Shown: positions 715-22,134 of the stretch, piece after piece
How positions within the stretch are numbered: position 1 is the first letter of the stretch
Layout: each line of letters opens with the position of its first letter
Virus record (IMG/VR): IMGVR_UViG_2671180864_000007
Source: a virus
Lineage: Duplodnaviria > Heunggongvirae > Uroviricota > Caudoviricetes
Length of the DNA stretch: 22,134 nucleotides
Reading direction: 5' to 3' (one strand)
The notes under the pieces: generated by a model
The model's input: only the letters and a program-made list of their open reading frames with translations
Databases searched by the model: none
Told to the model about the DNA's origin: nothing
Made by a program: the position numbers and the translations under genes

Positions 715-797
715 CTTAATCCAAGAACATACTCCCTACCTATAGCAAAATCACTTTTTTAACAAAAGAATAACGTATTTAGGTAATCATTACGAAT

Positions 798-3888: not shown

Positions 3889-3899
3889 NNNNNNNNNNN
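3889..3899. other. Assembly gap (N run) inside the stf repeat region
   Basis: 11 N; the flank 3318-3888 is identical to 5060-5630. Confidence 0.9.
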
Positions 3900-5047: not shown

Positions 5048-5059
5048 CNNNNNNNNNNN
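5048..5059. other. Assembly gap (N run) inside the stf repeat region
   Basis: N run; the flank below it matches 7199-7265 and the flank above matches 3318 onward. Confidence 0.9.
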
Positions 5060-6204: not shown

Positions 6205-6214
6205 ATTCACCCCA

Positions 6215-6242
6215 CAAAAAAGCCCGCCTGAACCGGCGGGCT
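6215..6242 (-). terminator. Intrinsic terminator upstream of the stf start (second copy of the 10033-10060 element)
   Basis: Same sequence as 10033-10060. Confidence 0.5.
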
Positions 6243-6302
6243 GTCATAACACTGTGTTACCTGGCTAATCAGAATTTATAACCGACACCCACGATGAAAC
6301 CG

Positions 6303-6526
6303 TCAGTGCGCCAGAGACGTGTTGCTGTGGCGACCGTCATCACTTCCGGTCAGCACATCGTGCGTTTTCCCCTTATTGTCAGTTACGCGGATATAATCCC
6401 CGGAAAAAGTCGACACACGGCTGTAAGCCACACCCGCCATCGCATACGCGCTGAACCATTCATTCACGCGCACAGACGGCCCCGCCATCACGCTGAACCA
6501 GCGGTTACGCACGGAATCTTCATGCC
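6303..6526 (-). pseudogene. lom: Lom fragment (3' part with the same internal deletion as the copy at 10121-10603), joined to stf repeat sequence at N 6527
   Basis: 6260-6526 is identical to 10078-10344; ORF 6303-6512 reads ...RHSNTSLAH*. Confidence 0.55.
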
Positions 6527-6527
6527 N

Positions 6528-7768
6528 GTCGCACTGCCTGCCGCCTCTGATGCTTTCGTTGTTGCTGTCGTGGCACTACCTTTCGCTGCTGACGCTTGTC
6601 TGGTCGCCTCATCTTTTGAAGCAGACGCAGATGATGCCGATGACGCCGCTGAACTGGCTGACGATGCGGCTGCTGCCTTAGAGGAAGCAGCATTGTCTGC
6701 TGAAGTCTTTGCATTTGTTTCAGAGGTTTTTGCTGCAGAAGCAGACCTCGCTGCTGCAGTGGCTTTGCCAGCCTTCGTTGTGGCTGTTGAAGCGGATGAT
6801 GCGGCGCTTTCTGCCGATTTTCCGGCGGCGGTGGCACTGGCTGAGGCCTGCCCGGCACTTGTTGACGCGGCACTGGCAGATAATGCAGCCGCTGTTTTTG
6901 AACCTGCCGCAGCTGAGGCGCTCTGTCCCGCTGCTGTTTCAGAAGACTTAGCGTTCGTCTCGGACGTTTTTGCCGCCTTCGCGGAATTTCCTGCCGCCGT
7001 TGCCGAGGAAGCTGCACTACTGGCACTTGATGATGCATTCGTTTCTGAAGATTTCGCTGCCTCTTTTGAGGCCGCCGCACCCCGTGCCGAGGTGGCAGCT
7101 TCTGACGCCTTCGTGGTCGCTGTGGATGCAGAAGTGGCTGCCGATTTTTGTGATGCTGCGGCATTCGTTTCTGACGTTTTCGCGGCACTGGCGCTGGTAG
7201 CTGCCGCGCTTTTTGATGACTCTGCAGCAGCACTTTTTGCTGCTTCACGGGCCTTTGTCGATGCCGTTCCTGCGCTGGAAGACGCTGACTGAGCCGACGA
7301 CGCGGCCTGTCCGGCTGACGTGCTGGCGGCACGTGCTGAGGCTGCAGCATCGGTTGCATGAGTTGCCGCCTCGCTGGCTGATTTTTTCGCGGCTGCCGTA
7401 TTCTGTGCAACCGCGGAGGCGTTACGTGACACCTCTTCCACCATCTGCTCAAAGCGGCGCAGTGCCTCCGGTCGGACATCATCCTCCGTCATGGCACCGA
7501 GAAAATCATTCAGCGTACCTGGTCTGGAACCTTCATAGACGGTAATGGTCCCGGCATGTGAAGGCGGAAAACCTTCAACCAGCAGGGTGACGCTGTACTG
7601 ACCATGCTCAACATCCATGCTGTAACGTCCGGCTTCATCCGGATTTTCAGAGGCCACCGTGTTCACCACCATCGTGCTGCTGGTTCGTCTGGCCTTCAGC
7701 ACAATGGTGCAGTTCTGTACTGGTTTTCCTGTGCCATCTTTAAGCACGCCAGAAATTTTTACTGTCAT
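6528..7768 (-). CDS. stf: Side tail fibre Stf, 5' portion (variant N-terminus MTVKISGVLKD...), 3' end cut at the ambiguous base 6527
   Basis: ORF 6488-7768 encodes the Stf N-terminal domain plus the Ala/Ser/Thr-rich repeat region (...[40 protein letters not shown]...). Confidence 0.7.
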
Positions 7769-7781
7769 ACTTTTCCACCAA

Positions 7782-7814
7782 TAAAAAAAGCCCGCAGCAG
7801 TGACGCCACGGGCT
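7782..7814 (-). terminator. Intrinsic terminator between lom and stf (copy Y)
   Basis: Minus strand: agcccg...cgggct hairpin followed by TTTTTTT; the stem is short and the loop long, so this is weaker than the other terminators. Confidence 0.4.
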
Positions 7815-7919
7815 TCAGGACAGTGTAACTTTACGTTTCCTCAAACGCAGTTCACCCCATAAGGTGGATGAACCTGCGTATCATAACAATATTTACAGAA
7901 GATAAATCGGCGTCTGTTG

Positions 7920-8519
7920 TCAGATACGGTATCCGATACCAACAATAAATGCATCCGTTCGCCAGTCACCACTACCGGAACCTTCATAAGCAAGGTCAAT
8001 GGTCACGGATTCGGTCGGGTTAAACTGCACGCCAGCCCCCCACGCCAGAGACGTGTTGCTGTGGCGACCGTCATCACTTCCGGTCAGCACATCGTGCGTT
8101 TTCCCCTTGTTGTCAGTTACGCGGAGATAATCCCCGGAGAAAGTCGACACACGGCTGTAAGCCACACCCACCATCGCATACGCGCTGAACCATTCATTCA
8201 CGCGTACAGACGGCCCCGCCATCACGCTGAACCAGCGGTTACGCACGGAATCTTCATGCCAGCGGGTATCGCTGTAGTGCGTTTTTTGCTCATCCTCAGC
8301 ATTGGCATAACTGAAGGACGTAATCAGCCCCAGCGCGTCCGTAAACTCATAACGGTATTTCACGTTAATCCCGTTCAGATTATCGCTGCCGGGAGCGTTC
8401 GTACGGGCATGAAGATACCCCGCGCTCAGTGTGGACTGATGTTCAGACGCCCATGCAGGCGCACCGGATACGGCCAGGCAAATGGCTGCGGACAAAATGG
8501 CTGCACAAACTTTACGCAT
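7920..8519 (-). CDS. lom: Lom outer membrane protein (Ail/Lom/OmpX family), intact copy
   Basis: 199-aa ORF with signal peptide MRKVCAAILSAAICLAVSGAPAWA and the beta-barrel C-terminus ...DAFIVGIGYRI; matches lambda Lom. Confidence 0.88.
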   Translation of the reverse strand: MRKVCAAILSAAICLAVSGAPAWASEHQSTLSAGYLHARTNAPGSDNLNGINVKYRYEFTDALGLITSFSYANAEDEQKTHYSDTRWHEDSVRNRWFSVMAGPSVRVNEWFSAYAMVGVAYSRVSTFSGDYLRVTDNKGKTHDVLTGSDDGRHSNTSLAWGAGVQFNPTESVTIDLAYEGSGSGDWRTDAFIVGIGYRI

Positions 8520-8542
8520 AATTACCTCTCGCTTTTCTGCAA

Positions 8543-8567
8543 TAAAAAAGGCGCCATTTCTGGCGCC
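8543..8567 (-). terminator. Intrinsic terminator between J (copy B) and lom
   Basis: Minus strand: stem ggcgcca / tggcgcc with loop gaaa, followed by TTTTTTATT. Confidence 0.55.
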
Positions 8568-8586
8568 CGTATATGGGTTATAAAAT

Positions 8587-9916
8587 TCAGCTGATACTGA
8601 TGCCTGCGGTGGCTTTCTTCATCACCACAACCAGCAAATCGCTGATACTTGCTGTGGGATACCAGTTATTCACCAGCCATGCTGACACCGAAAACTCCAG
8701 CGTCATGTGGCCGCGACCAGCTGGCATATCAATAACACCACTGTAAATCAGCGTATTATCCAGCGCGGTACGGTTATAAATTTCAGCACCGTTTTTCCGT
8801 ACTATCAGGCGGCATGACGAATAAATATCGTTATTCTCCCGCTCATGTTTAGCGCCGCTGAATGCCACCGCCGGAATAACAATTTGCCTGTCAAAAGGCT
8901 GATCGTCATAAATCCTGACGGTAATGGTCCCTGATGGCCACCGCTCCGGTGCCCGGGAGTCCCGCGGAAAAGCCTTACCCACTGTTTTGACTATATCGCC
9001 TTCAATCTGGTTGGCTGACAGTTTCCCCTTAATCTGACAGTTCTCATTAATTGTGACATTGTTGAGCGTCCCGGCGTTCGCATTCACACTGCCACTGATA
9101 TCTGCATTTTTAGCGGTCAGTTTTCCGTCCGGTGTCAGGGAAAATGCCGGAGGATTACCGCCGCTGGTAATGGTGGGAGCCGTCAGGCGTTTCAGGAACA
9201 CGTCGTTCATGAATATCTGATCGCCCTGACCAACAAACATCGGCTTTGTGTTGCCATTCGCAGGATTAATCATCGCAATCCTGTCTGCCGCCAGCAGCAC
9301 CTGACTCTGCATTCCTGCTGGCGTATTCTCAATACCGGCACCGATACCCGCAATATAAAGGCGTCCGTCCTTCATCTGTTGCAGCTTCACAGCCCACATG
9401 CTGTTCAGATTATTATTTGTATCAACCTGAACCTTCTGTATCTGCTGGATTGCCGCACTCTGGTCTTTCAGTTTCTTATTGACAGTCTGCGTGATTTCAT
9501 TGCTGACATCCGTAATGGACGTCCTGATTTCAGCCAGGTCAGGCGCAAGCTGACCGTTATCAATCTGCGTCCACAGCTCCTGAGCCAGATGTGTTTTCCC
9601 TATCTCTCCTTTGAAAAAATCCAGGTAACCTTCCGCATCATCGCTCGCCCGACCGACAGCCTCCACGAATGCCGATTTGCCAACGGTGTTCACACTGCGA
9701 ACGTAAAAATAATAATCATGGCCCGGTTTGATATTGATACTGGCGGCTATCCAGTACAGCGCCGTGCCAAGATAGCGGGCGCTGGTTTCAACCTGCCTGA
9801 TATCCGCAATCCGCTTTTCCGAGAACCAGAACTCAAACTGTACCGTCGGGTCATAAACGGCAAGATGCGGCGTTGCGGTTATCTGAAAATAGCCCGGCGT
9901 CAGCTCAATCCGCGAC
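8587..9916 (-). CDS. J: Second J 3' fragment (5' end cut by the gap) with a different C-terminal (putative receptor-binding) domain from the J at 10674
   Basis: [44 protein letters not shown]... is near-identical to the J at 11100-12000 up to ...NENC.IKG, then diverges over the last 145 aa or so (8587-9024). Confidence 0.7.
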
Positions 9917-9927
9917 NNNNNNNNNNN
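9917..9927. other. Assembly gap (N run) at a repeat boundary
   Basis: 11 N; the flank at 9928 onward is identical to 6110 onward (stf 5' end) and the other flank is the J 3' region. Confidence 0.9.
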
Positions 9928-10022
9928 GTGGTGCTGTTACGTTTTGCTTTCAGCTGGATTGTGCAGTTCTGTACCGGTTTTCCTGTGCCGTCTTTCAGTA
10001 CACCTGAAATCTTTACTGCCAT
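9928..10022 (-). CDS. stf: Side tail fibre Stf, 5' end only (truncated by the N run at 9917-9927)
   Basis: ATG at 10020-10022 preceded by GGGGTGA; encodes MAVKISGVLKDGTGKPVQNCTIQLKAK..., the lambda Stf N-terminus. Identical to 6110-6204. Confidence 0.6.
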
Positions 10023-10032
10023 ATTCACCCCA

Positions 10033-10060
10033 CAAAAAAGCCCGCCTGAACCGGCGGGCT
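10033..10060 (-). terminator. Intrinsic terminator immediately upstream of the stf start
   Basis: Minus strand: stem agcccgcc / ggcgggct with a 6-nt loop, followed by TTTTTT; 14 nt before the stf ATG. The same element recurs at 6215-6242. Confidence 0.55.
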
Positions 10061-10120
10061 GTCATAACACTGTGTTACCTGGCTAATCAGAATTTATAAC
10101 CGACACCCACGATGAAACCG

Positions 10121-10603
10121 TCAGTGCGCCAGAGACGTGTTGCTGTGGCGACCGTCATCACTTCCGGTCAGCACATCGTGCGTTTTCCCCTTATTGTCAG
10201 TTACGCGGATATAATCCCCGGAAAAAGTCGACACACGGCTGTAAGCCACACCCGCCATCGCATACGCGCTGAACCATTCATTCACGCGCACAGACGGCCC
10301 CGCCATCACGCTGAACCAGCGGTTACGCACGGAATCTTCATGCCAGCGGGTATCGCTGTAACGGGTCAGCTGGCGATTCTTGTCTCCTGCATAGCTGAAT
10401 GACGTCACCAGCCCCAGCGTATCCGTAAACTCATAACGGTATTTCACGTTAATCCCGTTCAGATCATCACTGCCGGGAACGTTGGTCCGGGCATGAAGAT
10501 ACCCCGCGCTCAGCGTGGACTGATGTTCAGACGCCCATGCAGGCGCACCGGATACGGCCAGGCAAATGGCTGCGGACAAAATGGCTGCACAAACTTTACG
10601 CAT
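10121..10603 (-). pseudogene. lom: Lom (Ail/OmpX-family outer membrane protein), copy with an internal deletion of about 88 bp and a premature stop
   Basis: 160-aa ORF identical in the N-terminal part to the intact copy at 7920-8519, ending ...SNTSLAH*. The Lom C-terminal sequence DGFIVGVGYKF* follows out of frame at about 10096-10120, missing about 29 aa plus a frameshift. Confidence 0.7.
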
Positions 10604-10625
10604 AATTACCTCTCGCTTTTCTGCA

Positions 10626-10651
10626 ATAAAAAAGGCGTCATTCCTGACGCC
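10626..10651 (-). terminator. Intrinsic terminator between J and lom (copy 1)
   Basis: Minus strand: stem ggcgtca / tgacgcc with loop ggaa, followed by TTTTTTATT; it lies between the J stop (10674) and the lom start (10603). Confidence 0.55.
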
Positions 10652-10673
10652 ATTTATTGGGGTTATAAATATT

Positions 10674-13600
10674 TCAACGAATACTGATGCCGGAAGCCGC
10701 TTTTTTGGTCACAATCACCGTACAGTCGGTGATATTGCCTGCCCCCTGATTGCCTTTCTGGAAAATCTTAAACTCCAGAGTGACGCTACCACCACCACTA
10801 GGCATATCAATAACTGCACTGTAACTACCGGGAATGGCACCTTTAGTTTCTCTGGATGCGATTAATACGCCGTTTTTGCGAACTTCAAAACCATAACCCG
10901 TGTATCGCGTGCCTCCTGGGTTATTTCCGCTCCCCGGATCGTCATACGCTATACCGTTAAAAATAATGGGCGGAATAATAATCTGGCGGTCAAAGTTATG
11001 ATCATCGCTTATGGTGACTGTAACCGTCCCGTTTGGTGTTTCCGTGTTACCCCACGTACCAGCCTGTTTCGGAAATGATTTGGATACAGCTTTAACGAAG
11101 TCACCTCTGACCTGAGTCGCCTCCAGCATGCCCTTAATCGTACAGTTTTCATTTACCGTGACATTGTTGAGCGTCCCGGCGTTCGCATTCACACTGCCAC
11201 TGATATCCGCATTTTTAGCGGTCAGCTTTCCGTCCGGAGTCAGGGAAAATGCCGATGGATTTCCACCGCTGGTAATGGTGGGGGCCGTCAGGCGTTTCAG
11301 GAACACGTCGTTCATGAATATCTGATCGCCCTGACCAACAAACATCGGTTTTGTGTTGCCATTCGCAGGATTAACCATCGCAATCCTGTCCGCCGCCAGC
11401 AGCACCTGACTCTGCATGCCGTCAGGGGTGTTCTCAATACCGGCACCAATACCCGCGATATAAAGGCGTCCGTCCTGCATCTGCTGCAGCTTCACAGCCC
11501 ACATGCTGTTCAGGTTATTATTTGTATCAACCTGAACCTTCTGTATCTGCTGGATTGCCGCACTCTGGTCTTTCAGTTTCTTATTGACAGTCTGCGTGAT
11601 TTCATTGCTGACATCCGTAATGGACGTCCTGATTTCAGCCAGGTCAGGCGCAAGCTGACCGTTATCAATCTGCGTCCACAGCTCCTGAGCCAGATGGGTT
11701 TTCCCTATCTCGCCTTTGAAAAAATCCAGATAACCGGATGCATCATCACTCGGCTGACCAACAGCCTCCACGAATGCCGATTTGCCAACGGTGTTCACAC
11801 TGCGGATATAAAAGTAATAATCATGGCCCGGTTTGATATTGATACTGGCGGCTATCCAGTACAGCGCCGTGCCAAGATAGCGGGCGCTGGTTTCAACCTG
11901 CCTGATATCCGCAATCCGCTTTTCCGAGAACCAGAACTCAAACTGTACCGTCGGATCATAAACCGCAAGATGCGGCGTGGCGGTTATCTGAAAATAGCCC
12001 GGCGTCAGCTCAATCCGCGACGGTGCTGCCGGTGCGGCAATCCGGAAGGTGGTGGTGGCAGGTTCACCCTGCTGGCCATAGCTGTTTATCGCCCGCACCG
12101 TCAGGGTGTATTCCCCGAGCGGCAGGCCGCTGAAACGGTGCTCCGTGTCTGCGGTGATGGCGGTGGTCACCAGTCTGGCATCCGTTCCCTTACCACTGGT
12201 CAGGCGCAGACTGAAGCGCACACCCTTCACCACCCGCGGCGTGTCCCATTTCGCCTGCGCCAGATACTGGCCGTCAGGTGCTGCACTGCCGGTGGGATGA
12301 CGCTGTTCAGGGAACCTGACTGCGGCTCAAAGCGGGCACCGTTATCCACGATGGCTTCTTTTTCCAGTACGTGCTGCACCGCCGTGATGGCAAAGGTGCC
12401 GTCCGTGTTTTCCCGGACGGAGACACAGCGGAACAGGCGACGGCGCAGTGACGGCAGGGAGAGTCCCCACACCCCGTATGTCTCCACACCATCAGGCAGG
12501 GTACTGACCTGTATCCGGTCCGGCGCGGGGTGTTCGGTGATGTCCACACTCACCGGCTTACCGCTGCCGTTAATCAGGTTCACCGTGGCGGCACCGGTCT
12601 CCGGAAGTGTCACTTCACGGTCCAGCGTCAGAGTGCGGGTGGCAGCATCAATGGACAGGACACGTCCGCCGGTCAGGGTCCCGGCATAGTCGTTATCACA
12701 GATTTCAATGATGTCACCGGGTGTGTGCCGCAGCCCCTGAGACCCGAGCGTGAAATCCACCGTCTGCGTTTCCAGCAGTTCGGTCTTTATCACCCACAGT
12801 CCGGCACGGTGGGCCTGACCGCGGCTGGTACAGCCGAACGCGTCCATCTTCAGCAGGTTGCGTCCGTAGCGCAGTATGGCTTCCGGGTCTTCCACCAGTT
12901 CCGTGGAGGTCTGCCAGCCGTTCTGCGGGTCGGTATAATTCACCTCCACCGCCGTGTGCCGGTCCTTCAGGGCACTGAAGCTGTAGCGGAAACCCACGCC
13001 GTTATCATCCACCACCACATCGCTGTTGGTGTACGGCCACACCACATCCGACGGGCGGTCCTGAACAAACGTCAGCGTCTGGCCGTTCCATACCGGCATA
13101 CAGCGCATCGCCGAGCAGAAATCACTGAGCACGTCCCATGCCTTACGCTGTTGTGCCAGGTACGCATTGAAGGTCATCCGCGGCTCGGTCTCCCCGAAAC
13201 TATCCGGGACCGTCTGGTCGCAGTACTGCCCGATGGCATACAGCGCCCACTTGTCCACATCCGCCGCCCCCAGACGTTTTCCCATGCCGTAGCGCGGGTG
13301 AGTCAGCATGTCCCACAGACACCAGGCCGGATTGTTGCTGTATGCCGGTTTCAGGCTGCCGTCCCAGATACCACTGTACGTGCGTTTTTCCGGGTCATAG
13401 TTTGACGGCACCTGGATGATGCGACCGCGGATATGGTAGTTCACCGTCATCTGCTGGCCGCCGAACTGCTCCGCATCCACCTGCAGCCCCACAATGGCCG
13501 TGTTCGGGTAGCACTGTTTCACATCGATGATTTCGGTGTATGACGACCACAGCGTCTTATTCTGCAGCTGGTCCGTGGTGCTGTCCGCTGTCTCCCGGAC

Positions 13601-14143
13601 CATCCGGATGTTAAAAGGACGGGGAGGCAGATTATCCAGAATCACCGACGCCAGAAACTGCGAGGTGGTCTTGCCGTTAATGGTGACATCCTTTTCTGTC
13701 ACCCAGTTACCGTTACGCTGTAACTGAATCAGCAGGCGGACGGATGTCGGGTTTCGGTCACCCTTTGACGTGGTCTGCACCAGTGACTGCACCCCGAAGG
13801 TAACCCGCAGGCGGTCAATGTTCGCGGACGTAATGGTGCGCGTCACCGGTTTTGCCTTCGTCACTTCCACGCCCAGTCCGGTTTCAGCACCGGAGGACTC
13901 AAAGCCTTCCGGTGGTGTCTGCTCCTGCTCCCCGGCGCGTCAGACCGCCGTCACACCGTGTATCACGGGATTACCGTCCGTGTCCGTCAGCGGGGTTTTG
14001 TTCACCAGGATACTCTGCAGTCCCTTCACCGGACCTTCTATCAGTCCCTCACCAATCGCATCAATCACGCTCATCATCTGCGTGGATTTGAGATTATCCT
14101 TCGCCTCACGAGGCGTGTGTGCCTTACCGCCACCTTTTCCCAT
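10674..14143 (-). pseudogene. J: Central tail fibre / tail tip protein J, disrupted as sequenced: in-frame TGA at 13940-13942 and a frame change within about 12230-12275
   Basis: Three collinear ORF pieces (13940-14143, 12227-13870 extended upstream, 10674-12233) each match lambda J segments (MGKGGGKAHTPREAKDNLKSTQ...; ...TRTITSANIDRLRVTFGVQ...; ...[41 protein letters not shown]...). Pieces 1 and 2 share a frame and are separated only by TGA; piece 3 is in the -1 frame. The last 150 aa or so diverge from lambda. Confidence 0.7.
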
Positions 14144-14249
14144 ACAGCCTTCCCCTGAATAAATTAACCGCCACTTGCCATTCCGTACAGAAGTCGGATA
14201 TCCTTCGCCCGAAAAGCATGAAACACATTTCTGCCATGCTAAAGAGAAA

Positions 14250-14282
14250 CCCCGGTATCAGCAGATACCGGGGTTTTCTTTC
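14250..14282. terminator. Bidirectional intrinsic terminator-like hairpin in the I-J spacer
   Basis: 10-bp stem ccccggtatc / gataccgggg (14250-14259 and 14264-14273) with a 4-nt loop, flanked by AAAGAGAAA upstream and TTTTCTTTC downstream, so a U-rich tail follows on either strand. Confidence 0.5.
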
Positions 14283-14346
14283 ATGCCCACCGATAATCCT
14301 GTTGGTTAAAACCGGTAATGGCATAAAAATTCTGAATATCTTCACA

Positions 14347-14376
14347 TTTTCACAAACTGACTGTGGCGCGTATAAT
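14347..14376 (+). promoter_or_regulatory. Candidate sigma70-type promoter on the plus strand (consensus -10 TATAAT at 14371-14376, weak -35)
   Basis: Perfect TATAAT hexamer in an AT-rich stretch; an alternative extended -10 TGATATAAG lies at 14400-14408. About 65-95 nt upstream of the plus-strand terminator at 14441-14479. Confidence 0.3.
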
Positions 14377-14440
14377 TTCTCTGCGTTAATTTTTTTGTCG
14401 TGATATAAGAATAATTCCTTACACTTAATCTTCGTAACTC

Positions 14441-14479
14441 TCCCGCAGTTCCTGTCCGCGATCACTGCGGGATTTTTTT
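14441..14479 (+). terminator. Plus-strand intrinsic terminator in the I-J spacer
   Basis: Stem tcccgcagt / actgcggga (14441-14449 and 14464-14472) followed by TTTTTTT (14473-14479); there is no U-tract on the minus strand. Confidence 0.5.
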
Positions 14480-14486
14480 ATTCTTT

Positions 14487-15167
14487 TTACCCCTGCCGCC
14501 CGATAACCACGACCTTTCCGCCCCCGCCTTCATCACGGGTGCTGATGTCCTGGGATATACGGCGGGAGCCAACCAGCATTTCCCCGTAAGGCACCGGCAT
14601 CGGGTTCCCCTGGGCAATCATGTTATCCAGTGAGGAAAAGTACGTGTTCTGTCTGCCGTTATCCGTTGCGCGGTAATCCGGTGTTTTTGCCTTCGGGGCC
14701 AGCATCTGGGCCACACCGCCCAGAATCATGCTGGCTCCAAGTGAAAACAGCATCGTGGTGGCAGAAAAACCACCGGCTGCCAGGGCTGAACCCCATAACG
14801 CCATTGATGCCCCGGCAGTGAAGAAAGAGCCCACGATGGCTGCCGCCCCCAGCACAATCTGCAGTCCACCCTTTCCGGCCCCGGCCAGTCGCGGCACAAT
14901 GTGGATGACCGTTCCCTCACCCAGCTGTTCGTGAAGACGGGCGTACACCGCCTCCGGTGCCGTGTCATAACCGGCAATACGTATCTGGTACCAGCCTTCG
15001 TTCATCTGACGGCGAAAGCCCGGCATCTGCATCGACAGGGCGCGAATGGCTTCCGCTGCCGTGTTCACATACAGGCTGAGGCGGCGGCCAAATCGTTGTA
15101 AATCCCCGTGAAGGCAGATGCGTGCCAGTGGCGGTGACGCCAGACTGAATGCGTTCGTCGTTGCCAT
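14487..15167 (-). CDS. I: Tail tip assembly protein I
   Basis: 226-aa ORF MATTNAFSLASPPLARICLHGDLQRFGRR..., collinear with lambda I, including the Gly/Ala-rich hydrophobic segment. Confidence 0.9.
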   Translation of the reverse strand: MATTNAFSLASPPLARICLHGDLQRFGRRLSLYVNTAAEAIRALSMQMPGFRRQMNEGWYQIRIAGYDTAPEAVYARLHEQLGEGTVIHIVPRLAGAGKGGLQIVLGAAAIVGSFFTAGASMALWGSALAAGGFSATTMLFSLGASMILGGVAQMLAPKAKTPDYRATDNGRQNTYFSSLDNMIAQGNPMPVPYGEMLVGSRRISQDISTRDEGGGGKVVVIGRQG

Positions 15168-15808
15168 TTTTCGGAATACCTCTCCCGTTTACTCAGTTGT
15201 TCAGGCAGATGGTGAAGCAGCTCACCGTTGCCGCAGTAAATGGCGGCATGGTTCGGTACCGAAGCACCAAAGCAGCACAGCAGAATATCGCCCGCCTGTG
15301 CAGAGGACAGGGGCACCCGGTAAAAGCCGGTGACCGCCATATTGTCCAGGTAAAGGTTCTGACCGTTGCGCCACCAGTCATCCTCGCGATGAAAATCCGG
15401 CATTTCAGTCCCCGCCAGATGATAAGCATCCCGGAACAGCGTGTAACAGTCCGTCACCCCGTGCTCAAAGCGCCGTCCTGTCAGATGTGGCACACAGCGG
15501 AATTTGTGAATGTCACCCCGGCAGACCAACCACCAGGGCAGTGCGCTTTTTATCTGCAACCGCCGGTCAGCCTCGCTCAGCCAGGGCAGCCCACCGGGAT
15601 GACTGTGGACCAGTGCCACAATCTCCCCCTGCATCTCTGCCCGCAGCCAGTCTTCCGGTGCGATACGAAAATACGCCTCCGGCTCTGCGGAAATATTCAC
15701 ACAAGGGATATACCGCTCCCCCTCCGGCGTGCTTATCACGAAGCCGCACGACTCCGCAGGCGCACACCGCCGGGCATGTGCCAGAATCGCTGATTCAGTC
15801 TGTGTCAT
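15065..15808 (-). CDS. K: Tail tip assembly protein K (JAMM/MPN metalloprotease-like N-domain plus NlpC/P60-like C-domain)
   Basis: Start placed at the internal ATG (15806-15808) giving MTQTESAILAHARR..., the lambda K N-terminus; the longer ORF-track version overlaps L out of frame. Contains E...HSHPGGLPWLSEAD (JAMM-like) and a downstream Cys/His region. 247 aa, with the 3' end overlapping I by about 100 nt as in lambda. Confidence 0.85.
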   Translation of the reverse strand: MTQTESAILAHARRCAPAESCGFVISTPEGERYIPCVNISAEPEAYFRIAPEDWLRAEMQGEIVALVHSHPGGLPWLSEADRRLQIKSALPWWLVCRGDIHKFRCVPHLTGRRFEHGVTDCYTLFRDAYHLAGTEMPDFHREDDWWRNGQNLYLDNMAVTGFYRVPLSSAQAGDILLCCFGASVPNHAAIYCGNGELLHHLPEQLSKRERYSEKWQRRTHSVWRHRHWHASAFTGIYNDLAAASACM

Positions 15809-15818
15809 AAACCGGGAT

Positions 15819-16517
15819 TTACTGCGAAAGTTTATTAATGGAAAGGAAACCGCCAAAATTGCCGACATTCCTGCGCAGTTCACACCCGCGCATGCACTTG
15901 CTGCATCTGTCCTTACGGATATCCGTGGTGGGGTTGTCGAACTCATCCGCCACCGCAGGACCGTTATACCCGCATTCATCTCCCCGGTAATCCCACATAC
16001 AGGTGTTCGCCAGCATGATGCGACCGGGAAACAGCGCCCCGTCCGTCTCGGTCGGTGTAGCCAGCACAAACGAGGCCGTCATGGCTGTCAGCTGCGACAT
16101 CTGCTCCACCACCCAGCGGTCACTCAGCTCCTGCTCCGGGTCCGCCTCCGGATTGCCCGCAACGAAATTCACCGCATCCAGAAAACGGGCATACACCCGG
16201 CGGCGGACCACCGTGGCCCCCACCAGACTCTGCAGGTCTTCCGCCATCCCGGTGACCAGACCGAACAGATTGGACACCGTCAGCGACGGTCTGGCACTGC
16301 TGCCCCGGCCGTTCATCTCAAAGCCGCTGCCGTCAATCGGGTATGCCTCATACTTACGCCCCTGCCAGGTGACCGGCTCCCCTTTTTCATTCAGCTCATT
16401 ACAGAAAAAATACCGCTCACCACCCTGTACCGTCAGGTCGATTTCCCAGAGTACCACCCGCGGTGACTGCTCTGACTTAACCGACTCGTTCAGACTTTCT
16501 TCGCGAATATCCTGCAT
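15819..16517 (-). CDS. L: Minor tail protein L
   Basis: 232-aa ORF MQDIREESLNESVKSEQSPRVVLWEIDLT...GGFLSINKLSQ, matching lambda L. Confidence 0.92.
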   Translation of the reverse strand: MQDIREESLNESVKSEQSPRVVLWEIDLTVQGGERYFFCNELNEKGEPVTWQGRKYEAYPIDGSGFEMNGRGSSARPSLTVSNLFGLVTGMAEDLQSLVGATVVRRRVYARFLDAVNFVAGNPEADPEQELSDRWVVEQMSQLTAMTASFVLATPTETDGALFPGRIMLANTCMWDYRGDECGYNGPAVADEFDNPTTDIRKDRCSKCMRGCELRRNVGNFGGFLSINKLSQ

Positions 16518-16846
16518 CAGTTCACCACCTGCTTAAACTCCGCGCTGAACTCAACGCGCAACATCCCGACCCGCGCAGACCACCCGGCACAGGTCACCTT
16601 TATCTGCCGGTATGCATAGGGTGGCTTCCACAAAAATGCCTTCCAGCCACCGTGCTCTGCCAGGAACGCTTCCAGATGCCGGGCCTCCTCCCGGGTCACG
16701 GAAAGCGTCACCCTGTATGTTTTCAGGTCAGCATTCAGCCCTGCCGCCATACGCTGTGAGTACCCGTCACCAAAACGCACTTCACGCACCGATGGCTGCG
16801 AGTTCACCTCCATATCCGGCTTCACTTTCCAGCGAAAGGTTTTCAT
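16517..16846 (-). CDS. M: Minor tail protein M
   Basis: 109-aa ORF MKTFRWKVKP...EFSAEFKQVVN, near-identical to lambda M. Confidence 0.92.
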   Translation of the reverse strand: MKTFRWKVKPDMEVNSQPSVREVRFGDGYSQRMAAGLNADLKTYRVTLSVTREEARHLEAFLAEHGGWKAFLWKPPYAYRQIKVTCAGWSARVGMLRVEFSAEFKQVVN

Positions 16847-19416
16847 CCACCGCTCCCTGATAACATACCGCCATCACGCAACTGCAGCCGGAGTTCATCC
16901 TGTGCCCCCTTGCGGGCCATCTCATACACCGCTTTCATCAGCTGCGGCCCTGCCCGCCCGTTGGGGCCGTCGTTCTGAATCACCACGTGATTGTTCTGAT
17001 TAAAATTAATGCCTTCCGCCCGCCGCATCTGCGCCGGACTTCCGGCACCGCCGACATAACCACCTTCCGCATAGCCCCGCATCAGGCGGTACAGATTGCC
17101 GACACCAATCCGGCTGGTCGCCTCCTTCGTGAAGACAAACTCCCCGCGATGAACAATCCCCGCAGGTTCATATTTACCCCCCGTCCCCGTAAATCCCCCG
17201 GTCGCGAAATGGAAGTTCGCCGCCGCAGCCTGAATGGCCGTCCCCGTGGAGGCAGACGCACCACCACCGAAAGCACCGCCAATGGCGCTGCCGATACTCC
17301 CGACTATCCCCACCATCGCCTGCTTCAGAAAAATCTCTGTCAGCATGGACAGCACAGAACGGGTGAAACCACGCCAGTTCTGTTCGCTGCCGATCAGCAT
17401 CGCTGCCATATTCTGTGCAATACCGTCAAAGGTCTGCGTGGCCGCGTTTTTAACCTGCGAAAAACTGTCCGTCGCACTTTCCGCCCACTCGCCCCAGCCG
17501 GACTTCATCCCGGCCATCCAGCTTCCACGAAGCTGCTCCTCCGCAGACCAGGTGTTCTTCAGTGCAGATGTGGCCTTCGCCAGCGCAGCCGGATTATCAC
17601 CGTACACCTCACGAAGGCGCTGCTCTTCCGACTCCCGCTGCGCCTGACGGTCGGTGAGTCCGCGGGCTTTTGCGCTGATTGCCGCCTGCTTCGCGCTCTG
17701 CTGCTGTTCAAACCGCGCCGCCTGCTGTGCCAGCTCATTCAGCCGTTTCTGGTGTTCAATCTTGTCGCCCAGCTCAGCCAGCTGGCGTTTGTACTCCAGC
17801 GTTTCTTTCTCATGGGCCAGCAGGGATTTTTCCTGCTCAGATAACTGCCGTTTCGTGGCGGCCTCTTTCAGGACCACATACTGATTTTCCGCTTTCCATA
17901 AATCACGGCGCTGCTGGCTGATTTTTTCATTCGCACCGCTGTGCTTCTCCAGCGTCCTGAGCTCAGTTTCAAGCGCCAGCAGGGCTGCATGCGCCTGGTC
18001 TTCCTGGCGCTCACCGGCAGACACCTTCACACCGGACGGCTTTTTCTGCGTCGACTCATAATCCTTTTTTGCCGACGCCATCAGCGTGTTGTAATCCGCC
18101 TGCAGGATTTTCCCGTCTTTCAGGGCCTTATTCAGCTCTTCCTGCCGGGCGGTATATTTCTCCAGTGGCGTCAGCAGGCGCTCATACGCCTTCTGCGCCT
18201 CTCCGGTATACTTCAGCTGTGACGACTCACGCTCAGCCCTGTCCCTTGCCGCCAGTTCACCGGCTTTTTCCATATCCGACTGCAGCGTTGCCGCTGCCAG
18301 ACCCAGACGGGCATTTTCCCGGTCATCCCATGCGCCCTGAAGGTTGGCCCGGAAAGAGGAGGTTTTACCGCGGCGCTGGCTCCGACTCTGGTACCACTGC
18401 CATTTTTTATCCGCCTCATCAAATGCCTTCTGCGCACTGGCGAGCATATCCGCTGAGGATTCCGGACGACCGATATCCAGAATGGCATCCCACATCGATT
18501 TGAATGCCTTCCCTGTTTTATCCGCCCAGGTCTCCAGTGTTCCCATGTTTTCTTTCAGGCGACGGGTCTGCTCATCAAAGCCTTTCGTGGCGATATCGTT
18601 CGCCGCCTGCAATGCCCCGGCCTCGTCTCCGGAACGCTGCAGCTGTGCAACATACGCAATCTGCTCTGCCGTCACGTTACGGAACTGGCGCGCCATCGCC
18701 ATCAGTCCCGACGTCGGGTCAGTGGTCAGCTTCCCGAAGGCTTCAGCGACTTTATCCACCTCCACACCGGATGCAGACGCAAAACGCGCGACACTCTGGT
18801 TGATGGCATCAAACTGTTCACCACCACGCACACCGGCATTCACCAGGGCTGCCAGTGACTCTCTCGCCTGGTTAAACGTCAGCCCTGCTGCCTGCCCGGC
18901 TCTTGAGAGAGTCAGCATACGATCGGCAGTCAGTCCGGACTGATTACCGGAAAGAACCAGGGTTTTATTAAACGCTGAAAGCGTGGAATCTCCCTGGTAC
19001 CAGGCGTACACCAGTGCACCTGTCGCCACCGCCAGCGAGGTGACCCCGACCATCGGCAGGGTGATCGCATCGGCAAGCCCCCTGAACATGGGGATCATCC
19101 CGCCGAAGGAGTCCTTCACCTGACCGCCCTGTTGCAGCAGGATCAGCCAGGGATTCTGACCACCGGCAAGCTGCGTGGCGATATCCGTAAACTGTGCGGG
19201 CAGGGTTCGCATGGCCGCTTTATACTGCCCGACGGAAATCCCGGCTTTTTGTGCAGCCAGCGCCTGGCGGCTCAGGCCCTGTTCAACAGCACTGGCGGTT
19301 TTTCTGGCGTCGGTATCCAGACCTGAAAAATGACGCCTTACCCGGCTCATCTGCTCATCGAAACGGACAGCATCCAGACTCAGGTCAATAACAAGATCAC
19401 CAACCGGCTGGGACAT
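16843..19416 (-). CDS. H: Tail tape measure protein H
   Basis: 857-aa ORF collinear with lambda H (853 aa as recalled): MSQPVGDLVIDLSLDAVRFDEQMSRVRRHF...; ATG at 19414-19416 preceded by GGGAGGTG; stop overlaps the M start. Confidence 0.93.
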   Translation of the reverse strand: MSQPVGDLVIDLSLDAVRFDEQMSRVRRHFSGLDTDARKTASAVEQGLSRQALAAQKAGISVGQYKAAMRTLPAQFTDIATQLAGGQNPWLILLQQGGQVKDSFGGMIPMFRGLADAITLPMVGVTSLAVATGALVYAWYQGDSTLSAFNKTLVLSGNQSGLTADRMLTLSRAGQAAGLTFNQARESLAALVNAGVRGGEQFDAINQSVARFASASGVEVDKVAEAFGKLTTDPTSGLMAMARQFRNVTAEQIAYVAQLQRSGDEAGALQAANDIATKGFDEQTRRLKENMGTLETWADKTGKAFKSMWDAILDIGRPESSADMLASAQKAFDEADKKWQWYQSRSQRRGKTSSFRANLQGAWDDRENARLGLAAATLQSDMEKAGELAARDRAERESSQLKYTGEAQKAYERLLTPLEKYTARQEELNKALKDGKILQADYNTLMASAKKDYESTQKKPSGVKVSAGERQEDQAHAALLALETELRTLEKHSGANEKISQQRRDLWKAENQYVVLKEAATKRQLSEQEKSLLAHEKETLEYKRQLAELGDKIEHQKRLNELAQQAARFEQQQSAKQAAISAKARGLTDRQAQRESEEQRLREVYGDNPAALAKATSALKNTWSAEEQLRGSWMAGMKSGWGEWAESATDSFSQVKNAATQTFDGIAQNMAAMLIGSEQNWRGFTRSVLSMLTEIFLKQAMVGIVGSIGSAIGGAFGGGASASTGTAIQAAAANFHFATGGFTGTGGKYEPAGIVHRGEFVFTKEATSRIGVGNLYRLMRGYAEGGYVGGAGSPAQMRRAEGINFNQNNHVVIQNDGPNGRAGPQLMKAVYEMARKGAQDELRLQLRDGGMLSGSGG

Positions 19417-20268
19417 ATCTCACACCTCCCGGAATCCCCGCTGAAGCCATCATTAATGCGGCATCATCCACCATGACATCCGCCACATCCGCAGACGATA
19501 AAATATCGCGCCCTCCGTCCCCACCGAACCGGACGCCTCCGGCAAGTCCTGCCGCTTTCTGCATCAGCATTTTGTCCTCATCCGGCCTCTCCACCTGCTC
19601 TTCCTCATGCCGGGGGACAAGCAGACTGAAATCAGAGGGATGCATATCCGGATCGCAAAAAAACAGGCTGAGTACAGCGTACGTCAGCCCGGAAAAATGC
19701 ATATCCAGCTGGGTATCCTGAAAATAATGCGTGCGGTAAAAACGGCGCCAGTCGGCATATTCGGTGGATGTCATCCCGGCAAGCATGGCGCGCCAGTCGG
19801 GTCTCCCCATCTCACGCGCCAGTCTGAGGGCAAAGTTCAGCTCGCCGTCGAAGACTTTCCCGCAGAAAAATCATCATCAGTCAGCGTGTTATTTTTCGCC
19901 ACTTCAGTAATATCAGTATCCGGACGAACAGCTTCGATCATCCCGGACAGGCACAACACCACGTCTTCCGCCCGGGCAATGGCATCGGCAGGCCAGGTGG
20001 TGAGCACTTCCTGCTCTATCTTCATCACGGCCTCATTCATTGACGGTGACTGCGTTTTCTGTGGATGGTTATGCCACAGGGACATCGCCACCAGAAACGC
20101 GCCGGTTCTGACGAGATCTTCCACGCTTACCTGCAGGTTGCCGCTGGATTCTGCCTGTTCTGCACGCCGTTTCAGGAGGGCAAGATGCTCGATACGCTGC
20201 AGCGCAGACAATTCGGAAAGCGTGACAGACACACCGTTATATTCAAATTGTTCTGTTTTCAGAAACAT
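19397..20268 (-). CDS. T: G-T fusion tail assembly chaperone made by programmed -1 ribosomal frameshift (G frame to 19855, then T frame to the stop at 19397-19399)
   Basis: The T-frame ORF (19397-19810 in the ORF track) is open upstream to the slip site and lies in the -1 frame relative to G (codon low coordinates 1 mod 3 to 2 mod 3). The heptamer GGGAAAG sits 17 nt before the G stop, as in lambda. Confidence 0.8.
19837..20268 (-). CDS. G: Tail assembly chaperone G
   Basis: 143-aa ORF MFLKTEQFEYNGVSVTLSELSALQRIEHLAL... matching lambda G; strong SD (GGAGGT) upstream; ends ...SAGKSSTAS with the GGA-AAG codons inside the slippery site. Confidence 0.9.
   Translation of the reverse strand: MFLKTEQFEYNGVSVTLSELSALQRIEHLALLKRRAEQAESSGNLQVSVEDLVRTGAFLVAMSLWHNHPQKTQSPSMNEAVMKIEQEVLTTWPADAIARAEDVVLCLSGMIEAVRPDTDITEVAKNNTLTDDDFSAGKSSTAS
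19855..19861 (-). other. Slippery heptanucleotide G GGA AAG for the G/G-T -1 programmed frameshift
   Basis: Forward sequence ctttccc at 19855-19861 is GGGAAAG on the minus strand; the zero frame reads GGA-AAG (Gly-Lys near the G C-terminus). Confidence 0.8.
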
Positions 20269-20281
20269 GTATTACCTCCGT

Positions 20282-21034
20282 TTACCCTGCAGCGCCCGCT
20301 TCAGTAACGGTGACTTCAGCCACTGCGGCGAACTGACCATTTCCGCTCACCACAGGGATCTGCACCTTACCTGTCGCCACGCCGTTTACCGTAATTGTCA
20401 TATCTTTCACACTAATGGTGGCTTTCGACGGATCGGCGGAAACCGCTCTGAACGTCTTGTCGGTTGCACTTTCCGGCTCAAAAGAAACCGTCAGGGTGGT
20501 TGTTTTCCCTTTTGCCACCGTACCGGATGTCGGCGTCACCTTAATCGCACTGACCGGCGTAATTTTGCTGCGTTCTTCCGCTACAGAAGGTTTACCCACG
20601 TTAGTGACTTTCACCGTGCGGGTGATCACTTCTTTCGCCGTCACGGCCTTACCGATACTGCTGACCCAGCCACGAAACACATCCACCGTGCCATTCGGAA
20701 AACGGATTTTATAGGCCCGGACATCGCCGCTTTCAAACCAGCCTATAAGCCCTTTCTGGCCTTCCTCTCCCGGTTTCCAGGCCAGCGTAAAACTGGTATC
20801 ACCTGCAGATTTCTGCCCCTGCCCGGTCGCGCTCCAGTCCGCGTCTTCATCATCCAGGTAGTTATCATCATAGGATTCAGCCGTCATCTCGCCCGGCGTC
20901 AGATCCTTCACCTTAGCCAGTCGCTGCCAGTCATCGTCTGACAACGGGTTTGCATAAGCATCAGCCTTGCCGTTGTAAACCCACAGAGTGGTACCGGCAC
21001 CTTTTACCGGCTCCAGGGGATTTGGTGTTGCCAT
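20282..21034 (-). CDS. V: Major tail tube protein V with C-terminal Ig-like (Big_2-type) domain
   Basis: 250-aa ORF; N-terminus ...[12 protein letters not shown]... and C-terminal ...[31 protein letters not shown] match lambda V. ATG at 20266-20268 preceded by GGAGGT. Confidence 0.92.
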
Positions 21035-21041
21035 ATCGTCC

Positions 21042-21437
21042 TCACATCTCGTATGTAATGGAATAAGTCAGATCCGCAGAGCTCCATAACGCCATATCGT
21101 CATCACGACGATACTCATAGCCCTGCGTAACCATCGTGGTAATCAGTCCTGCCAGTGCAGGGATCGCAGTCATCGCCGGATAAATCCGGCTTTCCATCCA
21201 CTGATCGAGCTCCGAATCAGGTACCTGTGCCGGTAAAAACACCTCAATATGCAGTGTGGCCCGCCAGGTATCTGCATCCAGCTCTTCACCGGTATACTCT
21301 GCATCCGTCAGATAAACCGCGATCGCAGGAAAATCCTCTTCGTCAAAAACAACGGGGCGACCATCAAACAGCGTCGCCCCGTGTTCATGCTGCTCGAGTG
21401 CATCCAGCACTGCGGCACGAATGTCAGTGTGTTTCAT
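21042..21437 (-). CDS. U: Tail terminator (tail tube-head junction) protein U
   Basis: 131-aa ORF; sequence ([17 protein letters not shown]...[10 protein letters not shown]) is near-identical to lambda U as recalled, with the same length. Confidence 0.92.
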
Positions 21438-22009
21438 CGTTTTATCGCAATCCTCAGTTGTTGTTTCAGCGCGTATGCCAGTTCTTTAGGCAGGCGTTCA
21501 CGCCGGATACGGTCAACATTCTCATCAAATGCCTGTTTCAGTGGGGCCGCCATCGGGATTTTCACCACCTGAATGGGAAGGCGATTACGCTTTTTCCTTC
21601 CCTTGTCGTCATTGCCCTCCTCATATCTGGCCTGGGGAAGACGTTGCATAACATGCCAGCGCCCATTATTTAATCGCTGGATAAATGCCCGCTGATAACG
21701 ATGCTGACCGGCTTTGAGTATGCTGTTCGGACGACGCCCCAGCATTCTGATCCCCAGCTTAATCACAGGGAGATCACCGCGGTTAACGATAATTCTGGCA
21801 TTCGGATTTCTGACCGTCGCCCGTTTCAGTCTGGACCGTTCCTTTACCAGTTTCCGTCTCACCCTGGTTTCCCGGGCAACCTGTGACGAAGACTGATTAA
21901 TCGCCGTTGTGGCCACGCGGTTAATGGTCATTGCAGAAGCAGCCGGAATGGCGTTTTTACGAACCCGGCTCAGATTGTCAATCGCCTGATCAAGCCCTTT
22001 TATCGCCAT
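21434..22009 (-). CDS. Z: Tail completion protein Z
   Basis: 191-aa ORF in the position of lambda Z between FII and U; ATG at 22007-22009; stop overlaps the U start (ATGA). Confidence 0.88.
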   Translation of the reverse strand: MAIKGLDQAIDNLSRVRKNAIPAASAMTINRVATTAINQSSSQVARETRVRRKLVKERSRLKRATVRNPNARIIVNRGDLPVIKLGIRMLGRRPNSILKAGQHRYQRAFIQRLNNGRWHVMQRLPQARYEEGNDDKGRKKRNRLPIQVVKIPMAAPLKQAFDENVDRIRRERLPKELAYALKQQLRIAIKR

Positions 22010-22023
22010 AATTCACCCTGCGT

Positions 22024-22134
22024 TTATCGTCGCCGGTTAACTGCGGGTGGTTGCCCACGGTTGAGCCAGAGATAACAGCTGCCCCCGTCATCCGGAGATG
22101 TCAGCGCCAGTGATATAAGACGGTAATTCGCCAT
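22024..22134 (-). CDS. FII: Head-tail joining protein FII-like, C-terminal end only (5' end lies beyond the window)
   Basis: Minus-strand reading from the window edge gives ...SPDDGGSCYLWLNRGQPPAVNRRR then TAA at 22024-22026, matching the lambda FII C-terminus as recalled. The Z start follows 15 nt downstream. Confidence 0.7.
   Translation of the reverse strand: MANYRLISLALTSPDDGGSCYLWLNRGQPPAVNRRR

What the first reader, a model, noticed from the sequence alone, without database searches (positions are those of the whole stretch)
13937..13945. In-frame UGA inside J in a weak-termination context (UGA followed by C)
The J N-terminal piece (MGKGGGKAHTPREAKDNLKSTQ...GVTAV) ends at TGA 13940-13942 and the same reading frame continues directly (RAGEQEQTPPEGFESSG...) with full J similarity; the homologous lambda position is, as I recall, a sense codon (Phe). 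UGA followed by C is the least efficient stop context in E. coli, so some full-length J could be made by read-through. The alternatives are a nonsense mutation in a decaying prophage or a base-call error.
Basis: partly seen in the sequence, partly recalled or inferred. Interest (0 to 1): 0.45.

Follow-up and report, generated by a model that had tools for sequence, protein, structure and literature searches.

The report
Nonsense mutation in decaying prophage J
The in-frame TGA is real, but it is an ordinary Trp-to-stop point mutation in the tail-tip gene J of a defective Shigella sonnei prophage, and a frameshifting 22-bp deletion further down the same gene means read-through could not restore full-length J.

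Summary
On the minus strand, J starts at ATG 14143 and codon 68 (13942-13940) is TGA, followed by C.

The nearest intact J genes (E. coli ATCC 25922, FDAARGOS_1255, phage ASU11) have TGG (Trp) at that codon. Lambda has TTC (Phe). The lesion is therefore a single G-to-A transition.

It is not a base-call error. The exact 67-aa N-terminal piece occurs on 551 contigs, including complete S. sonnei genomes.

It is not a conserved recoding signal. Of 120 viral-contig J genes, 119 have a sense codon there. All five TGA carriers found are the same S. sonnei element. None of 185,579 species-representative genomes has the TGA.

The same gene carries a 22-bp deletion between CTGACGG repeats (12271-12277). 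This shifts the frame and stops translation at 12229-12227. It also has four G:C-to-A:T substitutions at residues conserved as far as lambda: P34L, G315S, G318E and P593L.

In related genomes, IS elements replace the head and lysis genes directly upstream of Z.

Any UGA-C leak (tRNA-Trp would restore the ancestral Trp) would yield only a truncated product of about 638 aa. The verdict is a pseudogene in a prophage remnant, of low interest.

The parts
13940..13942 (-). Premature TGA at codon 68 of J (W68*). It arose by a single G-to-A transition from TGG.
   Evidence: Searches give the sequence and translation. Searches show that the nearest intact J genes have TGG and that lambda and S. sonnei prophage-2 J have TTC.
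13937..13939 (-). CGC, the Arg69 codon. Its first base is the '+4 C' of the UGA-C tetranucleotide.
   Evidence: the Arg codon (CGC/CGT/CGG) is present in all five aligned J genes; the motif is W/F-R-A-G-E in all of them.
13943..14143 (-). J N-terminal piece, codons 1-67. It includes the lineage-specific P34L change (CTG at 14044-14042).
   Evidence: translation; the exact 67-aa product is on 551 contigs and is named Shigella sonnei. Searches show P34L.
12227..13936 (-). J middle piece, in the same frame as the N-terminal piece (FNIII-A and hub domains). It runs out of frame after the deletion and ends at TGA 12229-12227. It carries G315S (13201-13199), G318E (13192-13190) and P593L (12367-12365).
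   Evidence: residues 1-622 align with lambda tip attachment protein J (PDB 8IYK) at E = 0.
12271..12277 (-). Junction of a 22-bp deletion between two 7-bp direct repeats (CTGACGG). Intact genes read CTGACGG-TGGAGGTGAGTGCAG-CTGACGG. The deletion shifts the J frame.
   Evidence: alignment with ATCC 25922, ASU11 and the S. sonnei 53G copies; codons 625-632 missing; sequence.
10674..12233 (-). J C-terminal piece in the shifted frame (519-aa ORF; Ig-like, tail-tip-fibre and receptor-binding domains). From about 11980 downstream its sequence is no longer the prophage-1 allele.
   Evidence: Pfam; 46 mismatches cluster in 11140-11979; this 519-aa product is found only on this one contig.
14487..22009 (-). 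Upstream tail genes Z, U, V, G, T, H, M, L, K and I of the same prophage remnant. All are open here.
   Evidence: gene lengths and Pfam families; 11980-22134 is identical to S. sonnei locus L009.

Best explanation
The TGA is a fixed, lineage-specific nonsense mutation (TGG Trp68 to TGA) in the J (tip attachment / host-specificity) gene of a defective lambdoid prophage remnant of Shigella sonnei. J is a pseudogene.

Besides the stop, it carries:
- a 22-bp repeat-mediated deletion that shifts the frame about 557 codons downstream;
- four non-conservative G:C-to-A:T substitutions at residues conserved as far as lambda.

The element has lost its head and lysis genes to IS-associated deletion, so nothing selects for a working J.

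Mechanistically, RF2 terminates at UGA-C and releases a 67-residue peptide. A small fraction of ribosomes may insert Trp through near-cognate tRNA-Trp (inferred from the literature). Those ribosomes then go out of frame at 12271-12277 and stop at 12229-12227. They would produce at most a fragment of about 638 aa that lacks the receptor-binding C-terminus. The +4 C is the first base of the conserved Arg69 codon.
For: 1. Ancestral state. E. coli ATCC 25922, FDAARGOS_1255 and phage ASU11 read GTC TGG CGC where the window reads GTC TGA CGC. Lambda has F68.

2. Not an error. The exact 67-aa product is indexed in 633 blocks and 551 contigs, 15 of them with contigs over 1 Mb, and sources name it Shigella sonnei. 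The window at 11980-22134 is base-for-base identical to locus L009. It differs from six other chromosomal loci by 1-4 bases outside the 11140-11979 tract.

3. Not conserved recoding.
- A degenerate-pattern census of 120 viral-contig J genes gave TTC 91, TGG 28 and TGA 1.
- The TGA-specific pattern found 5 viral contigs, all the same element at 97.8-100% identity.
- It found 0 of 185,579 species-representative genomes.
- No E. coli complete genome matches the 404-nt N-terminal segment at 100%. The best hits are 99.5%; in ATCC 25922, the one read at base level, the two differences are TGG and CCG.

4. Further lesions in the same gene.
- The 22-bp deletion between CTGACGG repeats is present in every carrier whose sequence covers the site.
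- All five amino-acid-changing differences from the nearest intact gene (P34L, W68*, G315S, G318E, P593L) are G:C-to-A:T changes. Four of the five positions are identical in all five intact homologues aligned, lambda included, and the fifth (G318) in four of five. The 15 other differences are synonymous.

5. Defective element.
- In S. sonnei chromosomes IS21 and an IS3-family element lie directly upstream of Z.
- In L010 the order is holin, DUF1327, IS fragment, Z, with no endolysin, terminase, portal or capsid genes.
- Some strains show further independent breaks: H split in L010, I split in L008, and the J middle piece shortened in L011 and L140.

6. No stimulatory element. The 76 nt from the stop fold no better than shuffles (z = -0.02), and no Rfam match reaches its gathering score.
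Against: - UGA-C is a documented weak terminator, and TGA is the leakiest stop in E. coli, usually read as Trp (PMC5289835, PMC11126739). Some read-through product is therefore plausible, and it would carry the ancestral residue.
- The ten tail genes upstream of J are still open in this contig, so the module is not uniformly decayed. This is expected for a young clone, but I did not date it.
- Transcription and translation of the locus were not tested.
- The region beyond the contig end (upstream of Z) cannot be seen in this genome. It is inferred from near-identical loci.
Confidence: 0.95

Rival explanations
1. Programmed or selected stop-codon read-through: the UGA-C is maintained so that a regulated fraction of full-length J is made.
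For: The UGA-C tetranucleotide is the weakest bacterial stop context. The frame continues directly with J sequence. tRNA-Trp misreading would insert the ancestral Trp.
Against: - The stop is not conserved: 119 of 120 viral J genes have TTC or TGG.
- All TGA carriers are one near-identical element.
- None of 185,579 species representatives has it.
- The downstream frame is broken by the 22-bp deletion in every carrier that covers the site.
- The downstream sequence shows damaging substitutions rather than purifying selection.
- No stimulatory structure is present.
- Head and lysis genes are absent from the element.
Confidence: 0.01
2. Sequencing or assembly error: the true base gives a sense codon (TGG).
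For: The window is one contig of a draft short-read assembly (CXDC01000070.1). Its distal half looks chimeric.
Against: The identical 67-aa truncated product is on 551 contigs in 633 index blocks, 15 of them with contigs over 1 Mb (complete chromosomes). Seven chromosomal loci are identical at this site and ungapped across the whole J N-terminal and middle region.
Confidence: 0.005
3. Leaky 'pseudo-pseudogene': incidental read-through, with or without a compensating -1 frameshift after the deletion, yields trace J-derived protein that has some residual role.
For: Proteogenomics in Salmonella reported low-level translation across disrupted pseudogenes, with C the most frequent base next to read-through stops (PMC9122581 abstract). 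TGA read-through of up to several percent, mostly as Trp, was measured in E. coli K-12 (PMC11126739).
Against: - Two independent rare events would be needed for full length.
- By eye I found no classical slippery heptamer between 12277 and 12229; no formal scan was run.
- There are no capsid genes to build a virion.
- Four additional damaging substitutions are present.
- No expression data exist.
Confidence: 0.03
4. The UGA encodes selenocysteine.
For: Enterobacteria have the Sec machinery (general knowledge). The codon is UGA.
Against: Homologues have Trp or Phe, never Cys, at this position. There is no significant hairpin downstream (z = -0.02) and no Rfam hit.
Confidence: 0.002

Closest known systems
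Bacteriophage lambda gpJ (tip attachment / central tail fibre protein; PDB 8IYK, 8K35, 9E7M)
   Same: Residues 1-622 of the repaired translation align end to end with lambda J at E = 0. The Pfam domain order matches: FNIII-A_GpJ, Phage-tail_3, Ig_J, Ig_J_second, Phage_Tail_Tip, Ig_GpJ_C. The gene order Z-U-V-G-T-H-M-L-K-I-J-lom-stf-tfa is the same.
   Different: Codon 68 is a stop here (Phe in lambda, Trp in the nearest relatives). The gene carries a frameshifting 22-bp deletion and four damaging substitutions. A 343-bp spacer lies between I and J, where lambda has 60 bp.
Defective, IS-truncated lambdoid prophage remnants of Shigella and E. coli
   Same: Only part of the phage (the tail module) is retained. 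IS elements sit at the truncation point. Pseudogenes are present, and different strains show different additional breaks. Extensive IS-driven pseudogenisation in Shigella is documented (PMC8072062 abstract).
   Different: Nothing notable. This is a typical example.
Functional UGA read-through sites decoded by tRNA-Trp (for example Q-beta coat/A1, from my own knowledge) and the UGA-C of prfB
   Same: The stop codon is the same. For prfB the UGA-C tetranucleotide is also the same. The expected near-cognate decoder is tRNA-Trp.
   Different: Those sites are conserved and their downstream frames are intact and required. Here the stop is a recent mutation in one lineage and the downstream frame is broken.
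'Pseudo-pseudogenes' of Salmonella Typhi and Paratyphi A (PMC9122581)
   Same: Both involve an in-frame stop next to C in a host-restricted enteric pathogen, where trace read-through is conceivable.
   Different: No expression evidence exists here, and this gene has two disabling lesions.

Membership tests
Lambda gpJ tip attachment protein family | Sequence and domain architecture of gpJ (FNIII-A, hub/Phage-tail_3, Ig-like domains, tail-tip fibre, C-terminal receptor-binding domain) | tested here: met
   Pfam hits on the three pieces. The PDB search hit lambda J at E = 0 over residues 1-622.
Lambda gpJ tip attachment protein family | A single uninterrupted reading frame of about 1130-1230 codons | tested here: not met
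   There is a stop at codon 68 and a 22-bp deletion frameshift, giving three ORF pieces of 67, 547 and 519 aa. Intact relatives are 1132-1230 aa.
Programmed stop-codon read-through (recoding) site | The stop codon is conserved at the same position across diverged homologues | tested here: not met
   The census gave TTC 91, TGG 28 and TGA 1 of 120. All five TGA carriers are the same element. No species-representative genome has it.
Programmed stop-codon read-through (recoding) site | The downstream extension is intact and under purifying selection | tested here: not met
   The 22-bp deletion frameshift is present in every carrier that covers the site. All five non-synonymous differences from the nearest intact gene fall at conserved residues.
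Programmed stop-codon read-through (recoding) site | A leaky context or a stimulatory RNA element | tested here: inconclusive
   The +4 C is present, but it is the first base of the conserved Arg69 codon. The downstream fold is no better than shuffles (z = -0.02).
Programmed stop-codon read-through (recoding) site | A read-through product is observed | not testable with these tools
   This needs a reporter assay or proteomics.
Selenocysteine UGA | A bacterial SECIS hairpin just downstream, and Cys or Sec in homologues | tested here: not met
   No significant structure was found. No Rfam family matched. Homologues have Trp or Phe.
Pseudogene in a defective prophage | A disabling lesion relative to intact close homologues | tested here: met
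   TGG to TGA, compared with genes at 98-99.5% DNA identity.
Pseudogene in a defective prophage | Multiple independent lesions or relaxed constraint in the same gene | tested here: met
   The gene carries the 22-bp deletion and P34L, G315S, G318E and P593L.
Pseudogene in a defective prophage | The element lacks modules essential for virion production | tested here: met
   This was shown in near-identical loci. IS21 and an IS3-family element abut Z, and L010 has holin-DUF1327-IS fragment-Z. It cannot be seen in this contig, which ends 125 bp upstream of Z.
Sequencing artefact | The lesion is unique to one assembly | tested here: not met
   It is on 551 contigs in 633 blocks, including complete chromosomes.

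The most novel reading that the evidence does not exclude
Near-cognate tRNA-Trp decoding of the weak UGA-C would put back exactly the ancestral Trp68. A small, condition-dependent amount of a roughly 638-residue J N-terminal hub fragment might then be made. With the still-open Z-I tail genes, that fragment might assemble into something the cell uses, such as a receptor-blind tail-like particle. This would make the locus a 'pseudo-pseudogene' rather than dead DNA.
Probability: 0.02. Interest if true: 0.35.

Novelty: already known. Interest (0 to 1): 0.07.

Why it matters
It matters little. The result documents how one cryptic S. sonnei prophage lost its host-specificity gene: a transition to a stop codon, a repeat-mediated deletion, and IS-associated loss of the head genes.

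It has two practical uses. For annotation, the 67-, 547- and 513/519-aa 'host specificity protein' entries in S. sonnei records are pieces of one pseudogene. As a caution, a 'weak' stop context next to a conserved Arg codon is not evidence of recoding.

Tried and rejected
- **ASU11 annotation.** Phage ASU11 has a 66-aa 'hypothetical protein' overlapping the start of J. I first suspected the same split. Reading the DNA showed that this ORF lies in the I-J spacer and that ASU11 J is intact with TGG. Rejected.
- **Species-representative scan.** The TGA-specific degenerate pattern found nothing in the species-representative genomes. This is informative as a negative, but it did not identify the source.
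- **Source of the window.** An exact-protein look-up found it.
- **Poole et al. 1995 (PMC398062).** The paper is not held. The UGA-C statement is therefore cited second-hand from PMC5289835.
- **PMC9841425.** This paper deals with mammalian systems, so I did not use it for the bacterial claim.
- **RNA evidence.** An Rfam scan at a permissive E-value over 13500-14600 gave only chance-level hits. Folding downstream of the stop gave z = -0.02.
- **Searches not run.** I did not run the large protein-homology searches, structure prediction or the metagenome scan. The DNA-level evidence was already decisive.

Full report
**Observation**

J lies on the minus strand and starts at ATG 14143. The plus-strand bases 13940-13942 are TCA, which is TGA on the coding strand, and the next coding-strand base (13939) is C.

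Translation from 14143 gives 67 residues (MGKGGGKAHTPREAKDNLKSTQ...GVTAV), then the stop, then RAGEQEQTPPEGFESSG... in the same frame. The stop is codon 68.

**Identity of the gene**

The three ORF pieces carry, in order, the gpJ domain set: FNIII-A_GpJ, Phage-tail_3, Ig_J, Ig_J_second, Phage_Tail_Tip and Ig_GpJ_C. The pieces are 13940-14143, 12227-13870 and 10674-12233.

The repaired N-terminal 622 residues align end to end with lambda tip attachment protein J (PDB 8IYK and others) at E = 0. Upstream on the same strand are Z, U, V, G, T, H, M, L, K and I, all open.

**Ancestral state of codon 68**

- The closest intact genes read GTC TGG CGC where the window reads GTC TGA CGC. These are E. 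coli ATCC 25922 (99.5% over the first 404 nt), FDAARGOS_1255 (98.1% over 2164 nt) and phage ASU11.
- Lambda J and the second S. sonnei prophage J have TTC (Phe) at this residue.
- The lesion is one G-to-A transition.
- The +4 C is the first base of the Arg69 codon, which is CGC, CGT or CGG in every aligned homologue. The 'weak context' was already there before the mutation.

**Is it an error?**

No. The exact 67-aa product is indexed in 633 blocks of the assembly collection, 15 of them with contigs over 1 Mb. It sits on 551 contigs, and sources name it Shigella sonnei.

Window 11980-22134 is base-for-base identical to chromosomal locus L009. It differs from six other chromosomal loci by only 1-4 bases outside one recombinant tract.

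The window is the whole of contig CXDC01000070.1 (22,134 bp) from draft assembly GCA_001258035.1.

**Is the stop conserved, as a recoding signal would be?**

No.

The codon was TTC in 91, TGG in 28 and TGA in 1.
- A TGA-specific version found five viral contigs, all the same S. sonnei-type element at 97.8-100% identity to the window.
- The same TGA-specific pattern found nothing in one genome each of 185,579 bacterial and archaeal species.
- None of 5,426 complete E. coli genomes matches the N-terminal 404 nt at 100%. The best hits are 99.5%. In ATCC 25922, the one I read at base level, the two differences are TGG and CCG.

**Other damage in the same gene**

The alignment with intact J genes shows a 22-bp deletion. 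Intact genes read GTGCAGCAC CTGACGG TGGAGGTGAGTGCAG CTGACGG. The window keeps a single CTGACGG (12277-12271), the signature of slippage between 7-bp direct repeats.

The J frame therefore runs into TGA at 12229-12227. The rest of J continues in another frame as the 519-aa ORF.

Every carrier of the TGA whose sequence reaches this site has the same deletion. This follows from the ungapped alignments.

Against the nearest intact gene there are 15 synonymous differences and five that change the protein: P34L, W68*, G315S, G318E and P593L.

- All five are G:C-to-A:T changes.
- Four of the five positions are identical in all five intact homologues aligned, lambda included, and the fifth (G318) is identical in four of five.

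This is what relaxed selection with the usual mutational bias looks like.

**State of the element**

In S. sonnei chromosomes, an IS21 copy (istA/istB) and an IS3-family element lie directly upstream of Z.

In locus L010 the order is nanS-like esterase, holin, DUF1327, an IS fragment, then Z. Only about 850 bp separate DUF1327 from Z, so endolysin, terminase, portal and capsid genes are absent.

Individual strains show further private breaks:
- H is split in L010.
- I is split in L008.
- The J middle piece is shortened in L011 and L140.

The window ends 125 bp upstream of Z. The head-gene loss is therefore inferred for this genome from near-identical loci and is not seen directly.

**Mechanism**

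What the sequence shows is a premature UGA at codon 68, followed about 557 codons later by a frameshift and a second stop.

What is inferred from the literature:
- RF2 terminates at UGA-C less efficiently than at other tetranucleotides (PMC5289835, citing Poole et al. 1995).
- TGA is the leakiest stop in E. coli and is mostly misread as Trp (PMC11126739).

A small fraction of ribosomes could therefore insert Trp, which is the ancestral residue. The product would still end at 12229-12227. It would be a fragment of about 638 aa without the Ig-like, tail-tip-fibre and receptor-binding domains.

Full-length J would also need a -1 shift within the 48 nt between the deletion junction and the stop. 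I saw no classical slippery heptamer there.

No RNA structure beyond chance follows the stop (z = -0.02). No Rfam family matches above its gathering score. Selenocysteine is excluded on the same grounds, and because homologues have Trp or Phe and never Cys.

**Comparison with known systems, and verdict**

This is a member of the lambda gpJ family by sequence, but it fails the requirement of an intact frame. It resembles known UGA read-through sites only in the codon and its neighbour, and it fails both conservation tests.

It is a textbook pseudogene in an IS-truncated cryptic prophage of a Shigella clone, a lineage known for IS-driven pseudogenisation (PMC8072062). The 'pseudo-pseudogene' idea (PMC9122581) cannot be excluded without expression data, but nothing here supports it.

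Novelty is nil and interest is low.

**Caveat on the window itself**

Downstream of about 11980 the contig alternates between the two S. sonnei lambdoid prophages. It contains duplicated J C-terminus, lom and stf N-terminus segments. The chimeric 519-aa J C-piece exists in no other contig of the collection.

That half is probably a short-read misassembly across prophage repeats. It does not affect the finding, which lies in the part of the contig that is identical to complete genomes.

Noticed in passing
window 14144-14486 (I-J spacer), especially 14349-14480 on the + strand: A 343-bp spacer separates I and J, where lambda has 60 bp. The same spacer is present in E. coli ATCC 25922 and phage ASU11. 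On the strand opposite the tail genes it has a near-consensus promoter-like site (TTCACA-16-TATAAT, 11/12, at 14349-14376). About 70 nt downstream is the hairpin CCCGCAGT...ACTGCGGG plus a run of seven T (14443-14480). Together these suggest a candidate small RNA of about 100 nt (fold z = -2.25). No Rfam family matches.
   Followed up: partly
window 14249-14276: A perfect 10-bp stem (CCCCGGTATC / GATACCGGGG, loop AGCA) is flanked by A-rich and T-rich runs. It looks like a bidirectional terminator inside the I-J spacer, upstream of the J start.
   Followed up: no
window 1-11980: The distal half of the contig is a patchwork that switches at least five times between the two S. sonnei lambdoid prophages. 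It has two lom copies (7920-8519 full length, 10121-10603 truncated at 160 aa), two J C-termini (8587-9693 and 10674-12233) and two stf N-termini (6488-7768 and 4297-6210). The chimeric J C-piece is found in this contig only. It is probably a short-read misassembly, or possibly a rare inter-prophage recombinant.
   Followed up: partly
window 11140-11979: All but 0-4 of the mismatches to the S. sonnei prophage-1 copies cluster in this stretch (46 sites). This marks the switch of the J C-terminal region to a prophage-2-like allele. That allele is not identical to prophage 2: 28 mismatches and 6 gaps over 9928-12125.
   Followed up: partly
window 1-48 and 22010-22134 (contig ends): Both contig ends abut insertion sequences in the complete genomes: an IS1 end at position 1, and IS21 just beyond 22134. 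This explains why the draft contig breaks there. The first 800 bases give about 74,000 matching places in E. coli genomes because of the IS1 end.
   Followed up: partly
loci L008, L010, L011, L140 (related S. sonnei-type copies): Different strains carry extra private lesions in the same tail module. I is split into 113 + 80 aa in L008. H is split into 428 + 385 aa in L010. The J middle piece is shortened to 503 aa in L011, and L140 has an extra gap in J. Decay of the remnant is ongoing.
   Followed up: no
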